Shown here: positions 16,185 to 31,156 of the stretch, in pieces | Layout: the number at the start of each line of letters is the position of its first letter | Position numbering within the stretch: position 1 is the first letter of the stretch | NCBI GenBank assembly: GCA_965153355.1 | Contig: OZ231126.1 | Coordinates: 48,732,001-48,796,000, forward strand | DNA length: 64,000 bases | Source: Flaccisagitta enflata | Lineage: Eukaryota | Direction of reading: 5' to 3' | Notes under the pieces: generated by a model | Told to the model about the DNA's origin: nothing | Seen by the model: only the letters and a program-made list of their open reading frames with translations | The model's database searches: none | Position numbers and translations under genes: made by a program

Positions 16185-17396
16185 TCAGGATCCGCCGAAA
16201 TTGAGGACGCTTGGGTCGAAAGGTTGTCCTCTGAAGGGCGAGCCTTCCGAGTCCCAGCCGGATTTGAGTTGATCCATGAGTTTGAGTTGGTCGCTCGTCG
16301 GTTTGCCTTGTTCCTTCTGCATCTGGTCAAACTTGAGTTTGTTGACGGTGGCCAAAGATTCGTCGTCCAATTCTTCCAACGGCCGAGAACAATCGATTGA
16401 CTTCAATTCGATTTCCGGCTCGTCTGATATGAATGGACAAGGACGTAAAACTTAAAAGTAATATTGCTAATTGTTGTAATTCAAATAGAATGATCTTTAC
16501 TTCTCGACATGTACACACTAACCGATGAAACATGCGTCCCACCATCTTTCTTGTATCTTCTCAAGACTGACGTGCACGTGATCGCCTGGGACCATTGTCC
16601 ACAAACTGTTGGTAGGATGCACTTTCCACTTGAGGGCGTTGTCGACCAGCGTCACGTATTTGCCGTCTTCCAAGACTTCGACCTTGACCCGATCTTCTTT
16701 GATTTCTACACGGACTTGTTTTCCCTACAGAAAATAAACGGCCCGTCAATGACACTATCCGACATCATTTGACATATCTGAAGACCAGTCATCAAAGCTA
16801 AATGTAAGTGTCGGTCAACCCTAAAATTCCCAACAACCTTCTTCACGGATTTATCGACTTTGACCCTGAGGTCGAGATCTTTGATGGTCTGGCCCCAAGA
16901 GTATCGATCCCTCACAGCGCCGTTGTACGAGTCGGCATTGCTCTGAAATTCGGACGGAGGAACTTCCTCTTCTCGGACGGCAAGAGGCGGGGCAGATGGT
17001 GTCGCAGGGGGCGGGGAGTTGGAGGAAGAAGAGGAAGTTACTTCCGGCTCGACGGTTGGGGTTGAGTAGGCAGTGGCGTTATTGTTTGTGGATGAGATAG
17101 CTTCGACATCGTTCGCGTCTTTCGGAGTCACGGTGGGAGCTGGAGCGGTAACTGGCAATGAAGGCGGCGCCGTCGATTTGGTTTCCAGCATCATCGTTGG
17201 CATCGACTCCACCGGCGCGACCACCGCCTTTCCACTCTTCTTGGCTTTCGCGGCGGCGATGGCATCTTCGACCATTTTCCTCTCGGCGGGGTAAAGAGAG
17301 AATGATTTGTCCTCGAAGGACCTGAAGGATTCCATGATTTTGGCGCGGGCGACGCCGGGAGGAAAGCCAAATTGACCGCTGGGATCGGGCATGATC
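16185..17396 (-). CDS. NUDCD3: NudC domain-containing protein 3-like, exons 17396-16838, 16724-16523, 16423-16185 (first exon not found)
   Basis: GT-AG in-frame joins; GFPPGVA, DSYNGAVRDRYSWGQT, CS domain GKQVRVEI...SLWTMVPG...WW, C-terminal GWDSEGSPFRGQPFDPS match NUDCD3. Confidence 0.92.
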
Positions 17397-18845
17397 CTGA
17401 CAGATGGAAAGGAATAAAAAAGTTTGGGTATTGATTACGTTTCTCATCAACATCAATTACGCAAGTGCCTAGTAATCATTCTCATCATTACCCTCCTCCA
17501 CCTCAATGGATATCGTCTTCTATCGTCATCACAATCATCAACACTATCATCAGGGGTAGGAAAGCTAAAACAATTTTAAACGGTTTGAAATTTTTTAAAA
17601 ATTTTTTGGAAATTTAAAAAGTAAAAAAGTTGAAAAAAAGTTGAAAAAGGTTAAAAGTTAAAAAAACTTAAAAAAACTTAAAAAAACTTAAAAAAGGTTA
17701 AAAACAGTTTTAAAAAAATTTAACTAAGTGTCAGGTTTTTCTGAAATTGGTTTAAAATATTTAAAAAAAGTTAAAAAGGTTAAAAAAGATTTGGAATTCA
17801 TTCTTGCATATTTTTTCAAAAAGCTTCAAAGTGGTTAAAAAAGGTTAAAAACAAGGCCAAGTAGGCCAATAAGGTTCGACGTGAGGATCGTTGAACGAAT
17901 GCGTTACCCGACAGACCGACCAACCGACGGACACAGCCAGTTACAGAGGTGCTTTGTCGCACCTTAAAATTAAAAAGCCTGAAAAAATTAAACGGGGCAG
18001 GTCACAAGCGTTCATAAGTTGTTTTTTTTTTAATTAAAAAGTTTAAAAAAATTTTTAAAAGTTTTAAAAAAATTTAAAAAAATTTAAAAAATTCAATTTT
18101 TTTAAAAAAAATCAACCAGATAAATTATTTCTCTTCCCTCCTTCATTTTAAGCTCAAAGTTGAGCTTTTCAAGATTGGCTGTAGCTCTAAATCATTAAAG
18201 ACTCTATCTTGAAAAGCTCAACTTTGAGCTTTTAAAAAGCACAGAAATGAGCTTTTTGAGTTGGTTATCTAGCAAAAAAGCTCAAAAAGCTTAATTCTGG
18301 GCTTTTCTTTATTGATTTATTTATTTTGGCCTATATTTTGAAGACTTGTAAGGAATTTGACAATCTAAATGAATTCCTCGCCCCAAAATCTATCCATGAG
18401 TGAAAAATGAAAAAATCAAAGAGTGCCATATTCATGATTTTCACCTCTCAATTTTTCTTCAATCGAAAAAAATGATAAAAATCCATACCTACTCCCCAAT
18501 TTTTCTCCACCACTTATTTGTTGCCCAAACATTCTCTCAGAAAAAAAGAAATTAAGCCCACTCAATGGGGATATATGGTCGTGAAATTAAGAAAAAAACG
18601 CTAAAAAAGCAAAAGCTCAGAATTGAGCTTTTCAAGAGAGATCTCCAGCTGTATAGAGTCGCGTGGGAATAGTGTTAGCTAAAAATCTTACGGACTGACA
18701 GACTGATGGACCATTTCTGAAAAAAGTAGAGATTTGCTACTCTTTAACGTATTTCATAATTGAAAAATATTGGTCTCATTTTGGATTCGGTCTGAAATTT
18801 CTATGGGGACTTTGTAATTTTTTGAGCTGCCATACATCCATGAGA

Positions 18846-29600: not shown

Positions 29601-31156
29601 TAGCCTTAGATGTGTAAAAGACTTTTTTAGGGTACCATCATTTTTTACCAAGCATATTCAAAATTCTTTGTTGCATTATTATTCATTTTATGGATCAAAA
29701 AACATTAAAATAAACTACCGGAATATTCTTTGGCCAGTTTCTAGTCTTTGATTACAAACGATTCTTGAAGGTTGTGAAACATAGTGCTATAAAAAAAGTA
29801 GAGAAGTGTTGATCGACCATTTTGTGCATCAATTTTGTTGAACAACAAAATGCTCTGTTTATGCAAGTTATGATGACTGCTCATGAATATCTTTTTCTTT
29901 CCTAGTTGCCATATTCATCGTTTCTTTTATCCAACTTCTATGGCCGGAAGAATTGATCTGACAATGGATTCTACTTAATTAGACATGAATCTATGGGAAT
30001 CAGGAAAAAAATCAATTCTTCCGCCAATTTAGGTACCCTGCGTACCCCCCCCTGGTTCACACCTTGTATCAACCATTCTTCTGTAAAGATTCTAGAAGTA
30101 GAAACTAACGTTCAATGCATGGACAGAGCCAGTCTGTTATCAAAAACGTTCAATGCAGAGCCAGTCTGTAACGCTCACATCAGGAAAATAAGTTGGAATA
30201 AATACTAGTTGCACTAAAACTAAATAGATCATTCTAAGATAACCATGACCGCGCACTCGGTCCATTTACCTCCACTTGCGTAAAACGTATACGTATTGGT
30301 AACGTATTTTCCTTTGTGCGTCTTGTAGATCCACTTCTCAGCAGTGATTCCATCTACGTGATCCATGCCCACATACTGAAAATAAATGAGACCGACGCCA
30401 CAAAGATACGTTAAAGAGAAGTTAAAACATCCCATGATTGCCATTCTCGGACCCTTTGGGGCCGCTGCCCCACTCATCTCCGCATTCCCTCATAGTCAAT
30501 TTAGTCATACATAAACTTTAAGGCTGACTGTCCATATGGCCATAGTTTTCGTTTATTGCAAAACCGAAAACGGGCGTTAGTCGGTGTAGGTTATACCTAC
30601 GTACTGAATACTGACCTGATAATCAGAAAGGTCCGGAATCATTATTTGGACATCTCCGCCGTCGATCTGAAAACAATCAATCTCATTCATCACCCGTTCA
30701 GTTGTGAAGGGATTGATTTTGTAAGAAACGTCCAAATCACCGCGCTGAATAGTTTTCATCGTTCCATCTGGTGTTAGAGATACAGTTGAAGCTTTTAGTT
30801 TGGTAAGATAGCGTTAATGGGGGGGGGGCGAATGGATAAAGGATGTGGCATGGGTAAAGCAGGGAGCCAATTCGGTCAGTTGCCATCCAAACGATCACGA
30901 AGAGTCTACACACATGGCGATAGAAACGAGTCAGCATAAGATATTCATTAATTTACTAACCATAATAGTCAATTCTGCTCATTTTGGTAGATCCACTGAC
31001 CCAAGCCTTGAAGGGTTCTGATATCTCGCCATAGGGCAGGTTTAAAGTGCCGGAAACAAAGTAATCGGGCCCGAAGTCAGGGGGCGTTTTCTTGACAGCG
31101 GCGGTGGCGCGAGATAAAGCGACGCCCAAGGTACAGAGGAAGGCGAAGAAAATCAT
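23691..31156 (-). CDS. 26/29-kDa proteinase-like (cathepsin L family with N-terminal extension), exons 31156-30961, 30767-30616, 30375-30270, 24575-24474, 23949-23691; catalytic-domain exons not found
   Basis: Signal peptide MIFFAFLCTLGVALS; G.L.LPYGEISEPF.AW, SRIDYY, PVPFRFDMMGYDSLIGSHYDHYYL, C..FPGPG, NPMKEY, I29 prodomain FDRFVKKHGKNY...RKNVFKHNLR; all junctions GT-AG and in phase. Confidence 0.9.
24107..24265. repeat. perfect palindrome, 79-bp arms with 1-nt spacer, in cathepsin intron 4
   Basis: 24107-24185 is the exact reverse complement of 24187-24265. Confidence 0.97.
27189..27282 (+). repeat. degenerate interstitial (TTAGGG)n-like tract
   Basis: TTAGGG/CTAGGG/ATAGGG units. Confidence 0.75.
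27862..28328. repeat. 19-bp tandem repeat (GAAGACGATGACAGTAGTT), ~24 copies
   Basis: Direct inspection. Confidence 0.95.
28420..29170 (-). mobile_element. HINE-like element carrying ~180-bp internal tandem repeats; relative at 31930-32880
   Basis: ~3 copies of a ~180-bp unit, (GACA)n, end hairpin GTCACCGACAAA...TTTGTCGGGGACAAAA; the 32-kb copy has a similar unit and ends GTCCTCGACG...CGTCGAGGACAAAA. Confidence 0.65.

What the first reader, a model, noticed from the sequence alone, without database searches (positions are those of the whole stretch)
16185..31156. Complementary truncations: cathepsin N-terminal half sits in frame upstream of a headless NUDCD3
Seen: the 26/29-kDa protease stops mid-prodomain (…KHNL-AG|gt at 23691, phase 2), and I find no papain catalytic exons (QxxCGSCW, NHAV, KNSWG) anywhere downstream in the window. 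The next recognisable same-strand exon is NUDCD3 exon 2 (ag|G-ATC-ATG at 17396, phase 2), whose own first exon (…FGFL.R.TDF) I also cannot find. The 6.3 kb between them is almost all TEs and microsatellites. Splicing would give HNLR-IMPDPSGQFGFPPG in frame. Inference: either a real chimeric gene (signal peptide + protease pro-region fused to a CS/p23 co-chaperone domain), a large deletion allele, or an assembly mis-join at a repeat. Phase compatibility alone has a 1-in-3 chance.
Basis: partly seen in the sequence, partly recalled or inferred. Interest (0 to 1): 0.7.

Follow-up and report, generated by a model that had tools for sequence, protein, structure and literature searches.

The report
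Inversion-split protease beside duplicated gene fragment
A protease gene has been cut in two and half of it flipped, with a spare copy of part of an unrelated gene patched into the break, so the apparent fusion is a recent one-off rearrangement or an assembly error rather than an established new gene.

Summary
The exons and the in-frame junction are as described, but nothing is missing from the genome. Cathepsin exons 6-10 lie intact on the opposite strand, 24 kb left of the window. The headless NUDCD3 is a 5.2-kb, 98.9% identical copy of an intact gene 42 Mb away, cut inside intron 1. The locus is a chain of four non-homologous joins: an inverted 42-kb block, an inverted duplicate that differs like a second haplotype, and inserts copied from C1:90.9 Mb and C7. 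Two of the breaks sit in hairpin transposons. Six near-identical database proteins, two of them full-length (552 aa), join exon 5 to exon 6 normally; none of 13 compared is chimeric. Contigs from two other conspecific samples run past the left junction without it. The source reads and conspecific RNA could not be tested. Best reading: a recent private complex rearrangement (0.55), which would mechanically allow a 604-aa fusion transcript. Main rival: an assembly artefact (0.40). An established functional chimera is about 0.02, and a simple deletion is refuted.

The parts
30961..31156 (-). 26/29-kDa-type cathepsin exon 1 (ATG, hydrophobic N-terminus)
   Evidence: aligns to P0001 1-72
30616..30767 (-). 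cathepsin exon 2
30270..30375 (-). cathepsin exon 3
24474..24575 (-). cathepsin exon 4
23691..23949 (-). cathepsin exon 5, ends in mid I29 prodomain, phase-2 donor; single copy in the assembly
23432..23690 (-). unique 5' start of cathepsin intron 5 (259 bp)
18654..23431 (.). one part of a ~6-kb interspersed repeat with internal microsatellites; the adjoining part of the family consensus lies at C1:48,702,574-48,704,509, upstream of orphan exon 6, in matching orientation
   Evidence: the two parts are contiguous in the copy at C7:78,859,948-78,866,142
18150..18653 (.). palindromic MITE cut just past its hairpin centre; junction J2 at 18149|18150 with a few bases of microhomology
12949..18149 (-). 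segment N: 5,201-bp copy of C1:90,893,460-90,898,650 (44 substitutions, 14 gap columns)
17397..18149 (-). 3' part of NUDCD3 intron 1 carried in the copy, acceptor intact
16838..17396 (-). NUDCD3 exon 2 (phase-2 acceptor); one coding difference from the parent (K to R at 17322)
16523..16724 (-). NUDCD3 exon 3 (CS domain)
16185..16423 (-). NUDCD3 exon 4 with stop codon
13157..13357 (-). last exon of a DUF4748 small-protein gene carried along in segment N
   Evidence: E 1e-5, below the Pfam cut-off; exon bounds read
12948..12949 (.). junction J1: blunt, no microhomology, unique sequence on both sides
   Evidence: not seen in the listed contigs of X1 and X2
1..12948 (.). outer end of the inverted 42-kb block (C1:48,702,516-48,744,948) that carries cathepsin exons 6-10 on the + strand outside the window; duplicated in inverted form at C1:48,607,346-48,675,843

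Best explanation
This is a recent complex structural variant on the assembled chromosome, private or rare, made by error-prone repair of breaks at hairpin-forming transposons. SHOWN: read in the cathepsin's sense, the order is exons 1-5; a break in a palindromic MITE in intron 5 (J2); a 5.2-kb copy of NUDCD3 intron 1 to beyond its 3' end; a blunt join (J1); a 42-kb block of the cathepsin's own downstream flank read back through exons 10 to 6; about 58 bp of filler with no other match (J3); a 25-kb copy from C7; a join (J4) into one arm of a foldback transposon in intron 8; then a second copy of exons 9-10 and the normal flank. INFERRED: the inserts were captured or copied during end-joining or template switching, and the duplicated flank came from the homologous chromosome. 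The result is a null allele of the only copy of this cathepsin found in the assembly. By chance (orientation 1/2 x phase 1/3) it also leaves a template for a 604-aa fusion mRNA driven by the cathepsin promoter: signal peptide, N-terminal domain, half an I29 prodomain, then NUDCD3 lacking its first 43 residues. That product would have no protease activity and would route a cytosolic co-chaperone fragment into the secretory path, so it is most likely non-functional. Intact NUDCD3 remains at C1:90.89 Mb.
For: Exons 6-10 start exactly where exon 5 stops, are open (280 aa) and are 100% identical to P0059 and P0060, so the event is recent. The repeat parts beside exon 5 and beside exon 6 adjoin in other family copies, so intron 5 was once continuous. 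Both distant inserts leave and return to the same ~100-kb neighbourhood, which random read chimeras would rarely do (inference). No N lies at any join or in 137 loci (964,239 bases, partly overlapping), whereas false duplications are most often gap-separated (PMC9516828, passages). J1 is blunt in unique sequence, J3 carries filler, J2 and J4 have short microhomology. Dispersed partial duplicates elsewhere span 80-98% identity, and the older ones are hard to explain as haplotigs, so the process seems to occur in this lineage.
Against: The source individual's reads were not available, so no join is read-confirmed. The inverted duplicate differs by 1.3-9.8% substitutions plus large indels in its inner part and 0.08-3.4% in its outer 11 kb. 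That is the pattern of a second haplotype whose end runs into near-identical sequence, and a one-chromatid event does not predict it. The inserts' divergence from their sources (0.85% for N) is at allele level and shares alleles with other samples. Breaks at hairpins and tandem repeats are also where contigs end. The absence of N may mean gaps are not represented: none of 8 sampled contig ends has a telomere array, so the assembly is not end-to-end. J1 lacks the 2-15 bp microhomology described as common for MMBIR (PMC6082854, passages).
Confidence: 0.55

Rival explanations
1. Assembly or scaffolding artefact. The cathepsin gene is intact in the animal. A haplotype-2 contig (flank plus exons 10-6) was placed inverted next to its haplotype-1 allele, and stray allelic pieces of NUDCD3 and of a C7 locus were put at the contig breaks, with gaps closed or not represented. 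The fusion is a false chimeric gene.
For: Allele-like divergence of all three duplicated blocks. Breaks lie at hairpins and tandem repeats, and J1 is blunt. Both gene halves are perfectly intact. X1 and X2 contigs stop matching exactly at 12948/12949 and continue into other sequence; X1 depth over N (151-159) is like that over the flank (147) and about twice that at split sites (77). Several other near-identical dispersed copies exist. False chimeric gene gains by inserted false duplications are documented (PMC9516828, passages).
Against: No N at any of the four joins or in 964 kb sampled. A 5.2-kb piece from 42 Mb away and a 25-kb piece from another chromosome would both have to be misplaced here. 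X1 carries letters found in neither assembly copy at 5 of 9 sites checked, so it is probably another individual and its lack of J1 does not test the assembly. Logan contigs drop rare variants and their depth is not copy number.
Confidence: 0.4
2. An established, functional chimeric gene (secreted cathepsin N-domain fused to the NUDCD3 CS domain) shared across the species.
For: Canonical splice sites, same strand, same phase, open frame. Natural proteins with this N-domain and I29 but no listed peptidase family exist as Atlas clusters (automatic labels).
Against: 13 of 13 compared cathepsins, 6 of them at least 96% identical over the 3' half, read KHNLR-[FY]IHS. None of 34 longer NUDCD3 relatives lists a cathepsin domain, although the best is only 45% identical. 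The ancestral forms at J1 are present in X1 and X2. There is no divergence that would indicate age or selection, and the I29 domain is cut in half.
Confidence: 0.02
3. The split arrangement is real and fixed, and intact cathepsin mRNA is rebuilt by trans-splicing between opposite-strand halves, as recalled for Drosophila mod(mdg4).
For: The halves lie on opposite strands 48 kb apart with intact splice sites, and full-length 552-aa products exist.
Against: The break runs through a recent repeat copy. X1 and X2 show the unjoined forms at J1. No promoter source is evident for exons 6-10. Ordinary cis-splicing from unrearranged chromosomes explains P0059 and P0060.
Confidence: 0.02
4. A simple large deletion fused two neighbouring genes.
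For: It fits the window read alone.
Against: The supposedly deleted exons are present, and NUDCD3's native locus is 42 Mb away.
Confidence: 0.01

Closest known systems
Complex rearrangements with templated insertions (MMBIR / template switching; PMC6082854, passages seen)
   Same: Chained segments, copy gain, an inversion, inserts copied from distant loci, short microhomology at some joins.
   Different: Inserts are 5 and 25 kb, J1 is blunt, the duplicated flank looks like the other haplotype, and it is seen in a wild invertebrate assembly with no read confirmation.
False duplications and false chimeric gene gains in assemblies (Ko et al., PMC9516828, passages seen)
   Same: Adjacent allele-like duplicate, fragments of one gene inserted into another, apparent chimeric gene.
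   Different: Those are mostly separated by assembly gaps; no N is present here, and the inserts come from far-away loci.
Polymorphic chimeric genes from duplications in Drosophila (Rogers et al., PMC4069613, abstract and passages seen)
   Same: Young, segregating 5'-of-one-gene plus 3'-of-another constructs formed as by-products of rearrangement (78 in D. yakuba and 38 in D. simulans).
   Different: Those arise by tandem duplication. Here the 3' partner is a dispersed copy and the 5' parent is itself broken by inversion.
26/29-kDa protease / 26-29-p / CfaD / EPDR+cathepsin clade (PMC5823974 and PMC6363788, passages seen)
   Same: The intact product (P0059, 552 aa) has a long N-terminal region, I29 and a papain domain; the N-region's nearest Atlas clusters are CfaD-like and ependymin-like.
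   Different: In this assembly the gene is split between exons 5 and 6.
NUDCD3 (NudC-like co-chaperone, Nudc_N + CS)
   Same: The CS domain and C-terminus are intact; named relatives are annotated NUDCD3.
   Different: The window copy lacks exon 1 (43 residues, Nudc_N 2-34) and its promoter; the complete gene is at C1:90.89 Mb.

Membership tests
26/29-kDa (EPDR+cathepsin) protease, reconstructed gene | Papain C1A catalytic domain with Cys, His and Asn motifs | tested here: met
   Present in exons 6-10 outside the window; P0059 matches PF00112 at E 3.8e-67. Absent from the window.
26/29-kDa (EPDR+cathepsin) protease, reconstructed gene | I29 prodomain | tested here: met
   Positions 1-29 in exon 5 and 31-59 in exon 6
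26/29-kDa (EPDR+cathepsin) protease, reconstructed gene | N-terminal ~26-kDa ependymin-related domain | tested here: inconclusive
   No Pfam hit on residues 1-242. Atlas feature hits: CfaD-like 0.91, ependymin-like 0.87. No fold was predicted.
26/29-kDa (EPDR+cathepsin) protease, reconstructed gene | Signal peptide | not tested
   Hydrophobic N-terminus judged by eye only
NUDCD3 (window copy) | Nudc_N domain start in exon 1 | tested here: not met
   Absent locally; present at the parent locus
NUDCD3 (window copy) | CS domain | tested here: met
   E 1.8e-7
Functional chimeric gene | Open frame across canonical splice sites | tested here: met
Functional chimeric gene | Spliced fusion transcript or protein observed | tested here: inconclusive
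   0 of 13 cathepsins and 0 of 34 NUDCD3 relatives are chimeric, but these come from other individuals or species. The one raw RNA run (X19) was too divergent to test.
Functional chimeric gene | Present in other individuals | tested here: inconclusive
   Listed X1 and X2 contigs show the unjoined forms at J1; contigs cannot prove absence
Templated-insertion complex rearrangement | Segments copied from distant loci at inversion breakpoints | tested here: met
Templated-insertion complex rearrangement | Microhomology at joins | tested here: inconclusive
   J1 none; J2 a few bases; J4 an A-run; J3 filler
Templated-insertion complex rearrangement | Joins spanned by the source individual's reads | not testable with these tools
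   No laid run could be shown to be the source; X1 has alleles found in neither copy
False (haplotypic) duplication | Assembly gap between the duplicates | tested here: not met
   No N in C1:48,502,001-48,816,000; whether this assembly keeps gaps at all is unknown
False (haplotypic) duplication | Allele-level divergence between the copies | tested here: met
False (haplotypic) duplication | Half read depth on each copy in the source reads | not testable with these tools
   source reads not available

The most novel reading that the evidence does not exclude
The rearrangement is real and the fusion is spliced and translated, so this is a chimeric gene caught at birth. It would be one instance of a lineage-wide process in which breaks at hairpin transposons are patched with 2-25-kb gene fragments from anywhere in the genome, as the other dispersed partial copies (80-98% identity) suggest. 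That would make multi-kilobase fragment capture a steady source of exon shuffling in a wild marine animal.
Probability: 0.18. Interest if true: 0.6.

Novelty: new member of a known kind. Interest (0 to 1): 0.3.

Why it matters
If real, it is a base-resolved example, in a wild invertebrate, of a chained rearrangement that knocks out a single-copy protease and leaves an in-frame fusion template, and it points to frequent capture of distant gene fragments in this genome. If an artefact, it warns that this assembly holds gapless false joins and duplicates, so split, duplicated or chimeric genes called from it need read support. Either way the cathepsin-NUDCD3 fusion should not be annotated as a species gene. 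A search for NUDCD3 + fusion + cathepsin returned 3 papers, none relevant by title and abstract start.

Tried and rejected
Deletion model: rejected. Nested or interleaved genes with NUDCD3 exon 1 nearby: no exon 1 in the 194 kb around the window. Skipping from exon 5 to the sense-strand duplicate exons 9 or 10: by the exon lengths they begin in phase 0 and 1, not 2, so no in-frame product. Pack-type capture of N between paired transposon ends: no element end at J1. Recombination between the two MITE copies: they have different flanks and the join is not homologous. Expression test: X19 (about 6% of the run read, 403 reads laid) touched NUDCD3 only at about 16270-16338, with 7 differing letters and clipping, so it is too divergent and gives no verdict. 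The laid stretch (11700-18800) did not include exon 5, so a 23691-to-17396 joint could not appear directly. J2 was not covered by any listed piece (24 of about 136,000 pieces were shown). X3 (metagenome, depth 2-8 on unique parts) neither bridges nor crosses J1. P0040 and P0049-53 are read-through frames that run into the intron and say nothing about splicing. Six short cluster members (P0042, 43, 45, 47, 48, 58) were left out of the comparison. Sampling for N runs and telomeres could not settle whether gaps are represented. The source of the J3 filler was not found (short query, limited sensitivity). The MITE hairpin fold has no shuffle control. Earlier-findings look-ups returned nothing. Paper searches gave mainly listings; one search gave nothing relevant. 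NCBIfam gave no hit for P0059. No structure or complex was predicted.
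Full report
OBSERVATION. Five minus-strand exons give 271 aa of a long-prodomain cathepsin, ending KHNL plus two bases at 23691. Three NUDCD3 exons (17396-16185) give 332 aa after one bridging base. Both flanking phases are 2, and the join would read KHNLR-IMPDP, 604 aa in all. Pfam finds I29 positions 1-29 of 59 in exon 5 and a CS domain in NUDCD3 exon 3. No catalytic-exon motif occurs in the window.

THE MISSING HALVES ARE NOT MISSING. 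The window is G000:C1:48,732,001-48,796,000. A papain-family search hit C1:48.708-48.711 Mb on the plus strand. Alignment of full-length relatives shows exons 6-10 there, starting at the residue after KHNL, 24 kb left of the window and on the opposite strand; exons 9-10 recur on the minus strand at 48.664 Mb. Exons 6-10 form an open 280-aa frame with the Cys, His and Asn motifs. A Nudc_N search found a complete NUDCD3 at C1:90.893 Mb, with a 43-codon exon 1 ending in phase 2 and a 1,049-bp intron 1. Window 12949-18149 is a 98.9% copy of C1:90,893,460-90,898,650. It begins inside that intron and occurs exactly twice among the scored hits. It differs by 44 substitutions, one of them in the NUDCD3 exons.

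ANATOMY. Left to right on C1:
(1) Normal flank, then A' (48,607,346-48,675,843), which carries exons 10 and 9 and ends in intron 8.
(2) A 1.34-kb arm of a foldback element; a complete copy on C2 has 1.2-kb inverted arms and a target duplication of about 8 bp.
(3) J4, then a 25.3-kb inverted copy of about C7:61.946-61.974 Mb, mostly 96-100% identical, containing PX and Vps5 (sorting-nexin-like) exons.
(4) J3 with about 58 bp that match nowhere else.
(5) A 42-kb block running from the 3' part of intron 5 through exons 6-10 and the downstream flank to window 12948.
(6) J1, segment N, J2, the 5' part of intron 5, and exons 5-1.
J1 is blunt in unique sequence. J2 cuts a palindromic MITE just past a hairpin of about 30 bp and has a few bases of microhomology. 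The 4.8-kb repeat beside exon 5 and the 1.9-kb repeat upstream of exon 6 adjoin in other family copies: directly on C7, about 270 bp apart on C8 and about 1 kb apart on C2. They lie in matching orientation relative to the gene's sense, so I infer intron 5 was continuous before the break. The two copies of the duplicated flank differ by 0.08-3.4% substitutions in the outer 11 kb and 1.3-9.8% further in, with large indels (35.9 kb against 68.5 kb). That looks like two haplotypes.

WHAT THE SPECIES NORMALLY HAS. P0059 (Logan) and P0060 (JGI) are 552 aa, which is 271 + 1 + 280. They are 98.5% identical to the window's 5' half and 100% identical to the orphan 3' half. Their contigs are under 2 kb, so I infer they derive from transcripts. 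All 13 cathepsins compared read KHNLR-[FY]IHS, and 6 of them are at least 96% identical over the 3' half; six short cluster members were left out. None of 34 longer NUDCD3 relatives lists a cathepsin domain, but the best is only 45% identical. The window copy's single amino-acid change occurs in 1 of 6 environmental sequences.

READS. Four of 20 listed runs were laid on 11700-18800. In X1, one contig matches up to 12948 and continues for 449 unmatched letters, and another matches from 12949 and continues for about 2,100. In X2, one contig matches from 12949 after 622 unmatched letters. The unmatched letters were not shown; I infer they are the native flanks. No listed piece bridges J1. X1 depth is 147-159 over both the flank and N, against 77 at split sites, which suggests no extra copy, although the tool warns that contig depth is not copy number and that contigs drop rare variants. 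X1 has letters found in neither assembly copy at 5 of 9 sites checked, so it is probably not the assembled individual. X2 lists no other letter at three sites where the window differs from the parent, so part of the N-versus-parent difference is standing allelic variation. The raw RNA run X19 was too divergent to use, and J2 was not covered by listed pieces. Expression of the fusion is therefore untested.

MECHANISM AND RIVALS. The best reading (0.55) is a real, recent, private complex rearrangement. Breaks at hairpin transposons in introns 5 and 8 were repaired by joining in fragments or by template switching, which drew on C1:90.9 Mb, C7 and the homologous chromosome. The order of segments and the junction letters are shown; the repair pathway, its timing and its reality in the animal are inferred. 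For it: there is no N at any join or in 964,239 sampled bases; both inserts go out and return to the same neighbourhood; there is filler at J3; and other dispersed partial duplicates span a range of ages. These are a 10.7-kb NudC pair at 94.7%, a 2.3-kb cathepsin end at 97.6%, a third copy of the C7 region at 98%, a zinc-finger exon at 88% and a cathepsin pair at 80-83%. The strong rival (0.40) is an assembly artefact. All duplicated blocks are allele-like, the breaks lie where contigs tend to end, both gene halves are pristine, and other samples show the unjoined forms. Ko et al. describe such false chimeric gene gains, mostly gap-separated but sometimes joined by wrong gap filling (PMC9516828, passages). 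None of 8 sampled contig ends has a telomere array, so the lack of N does not prove contiguity. An established chimera (0.02), trans-splicing rescue (0.02; the mod(mdg4) parallel is recalled, not looked up) and a simple deletion (0.01) are disfavoured or refuted.

IF REAL, WHAT IT DOES. The cathepsin promoter would transcribe exons 1-5 into an intact NUDCD3 acceptor (39 of the last 40 intron bases match the parent), giving a fusion with no protease domain and half a prodomain. From general knowledge, a signal peptide would send the cytosolic CS domain into the ER, so the product is probably inert or degraded. The allele is a null for this cathepsin, whose exon 5 is single-copy in the assembly. 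The in-frame match needs only orientation and phase to agree, about 1 chance in 6.

COMPARISON. The intact protease has the architecture of 26-29-p and the EPDR+cathepsin clade (PMC5823974 and PMC6363788, passages); the ependymin-type N-domain was not confirmed by a fold. Young polymorphic chimeras are common by-products of rearrangement in Drosophila (PMC4069613, abstract and passages). Chained templated insertions are described for MMBIR (PMC6082854, passages). No supplements were read. A search for NUDCD3, fusion and cathepsin gave 3 unrelated papers, seen as listings only. Earlier-findings look-ups were empty.

VERDICT. Observation confirmed; interpretation partly supported. This is a new instance of a known kind, either a complex structural variant or a false chimeric gene, and not a species-level fusion gene. 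Interest 0.3. The boldest reading not excluded is an expressed newborn chimera that exemplifies lineage-wide fragment capture at hairpin breaks (probability 0.18, interest 0.6).

Noticed in passing
L115 / L118-L119 (C6:64,719,511-64,730,159 and C8:18,478,488-18,489,131): NudC lies in a 10.7-kb dispersed duplicate at 94.7% identity with sharp ends; the C6 copy ends inside a repeat.
   Followed up: partly
L120-L121 (C2:78,806,895-78,809,142): Orphan copy of the last exon of another cathepsin (C1:39.23 Mb), 2.3 kb at 97.6%.
   Followed up: partly
L124-L125 (C9:21.247-21.258 Mb): Third copy (98%) of part of the same C7 region that is inserted at the cathepsin locus.
   Followed up: partly
window 48192-48881 (+): AN1 zinc-finger gene with two zf-AN1 exons (ZFAND2-like; name recalled); the second exon has a dispersed 88% copy at C5:15.015 Mb.
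   Followed up: partly
L042-L044 (C1:48,677,187-48,702,515): The C7-derived insert carries PX and Vps5 exons (minus strand, SNX5/6-like by recalled sequence) and a Suppressor_APC exon (plus strand); completeness was not checked.
   Followed up: partly
window 13157-13357 and L056 about 2500-2660 and 8679 onward: Genes are tightly packed around native NUDCD3: an open frame ends about 370 bp upstream, and a DUF4748 gene and another ORF follow downstream. The spacing is operon-like; not tested.
   Followed up: no
L065-L066 (C1:48,530,689-48,540,568): Tandem duplication with an offset of about 5.8 kb at 99-100% identity, 70 kb left of the rearrangement.
   Followed up: no
window 18654-23431; L045 574-2509: Abundant ~6-kb composite repeat with internal microsatellites and short hairpins near one end (about 23350-23420); unclassified, possibly Helentron-like (recalled resemblance).
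   Followed up: partly
L045 3006-5762: Complete palindromic MITE with a 5-bp target duplication and a second inverted-repeat element nested in one arm, about 230 bp upstream of cathepsin exon 6.
   Followed up: partly
L041 7445 onward (C1:48,669,445-48,672,183, +): 913-aa open frame inside an insertion in the A' copy of intron 8; LINE-like by eye, not scanned.
   Followed up: no
window 1-1738: 70-bp satellite; 3.4 kb long in this copy and 9 kb in the inverted duplicate at C1:48,618,713-48,627,691.
   Followed up: partly
window 37824-38174 (-): Coiled-coil-like open frame, possibly an exon of an unidentified gene; only sub-threshold Pfam hits.
   Followed up: no
run X19 on window 16270-16338: An RNA run with the same organism label as X1 and X2 is strongly divergent at NUDCD3, which suggests a cryptic species or a mislabel.
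   Followed up: no
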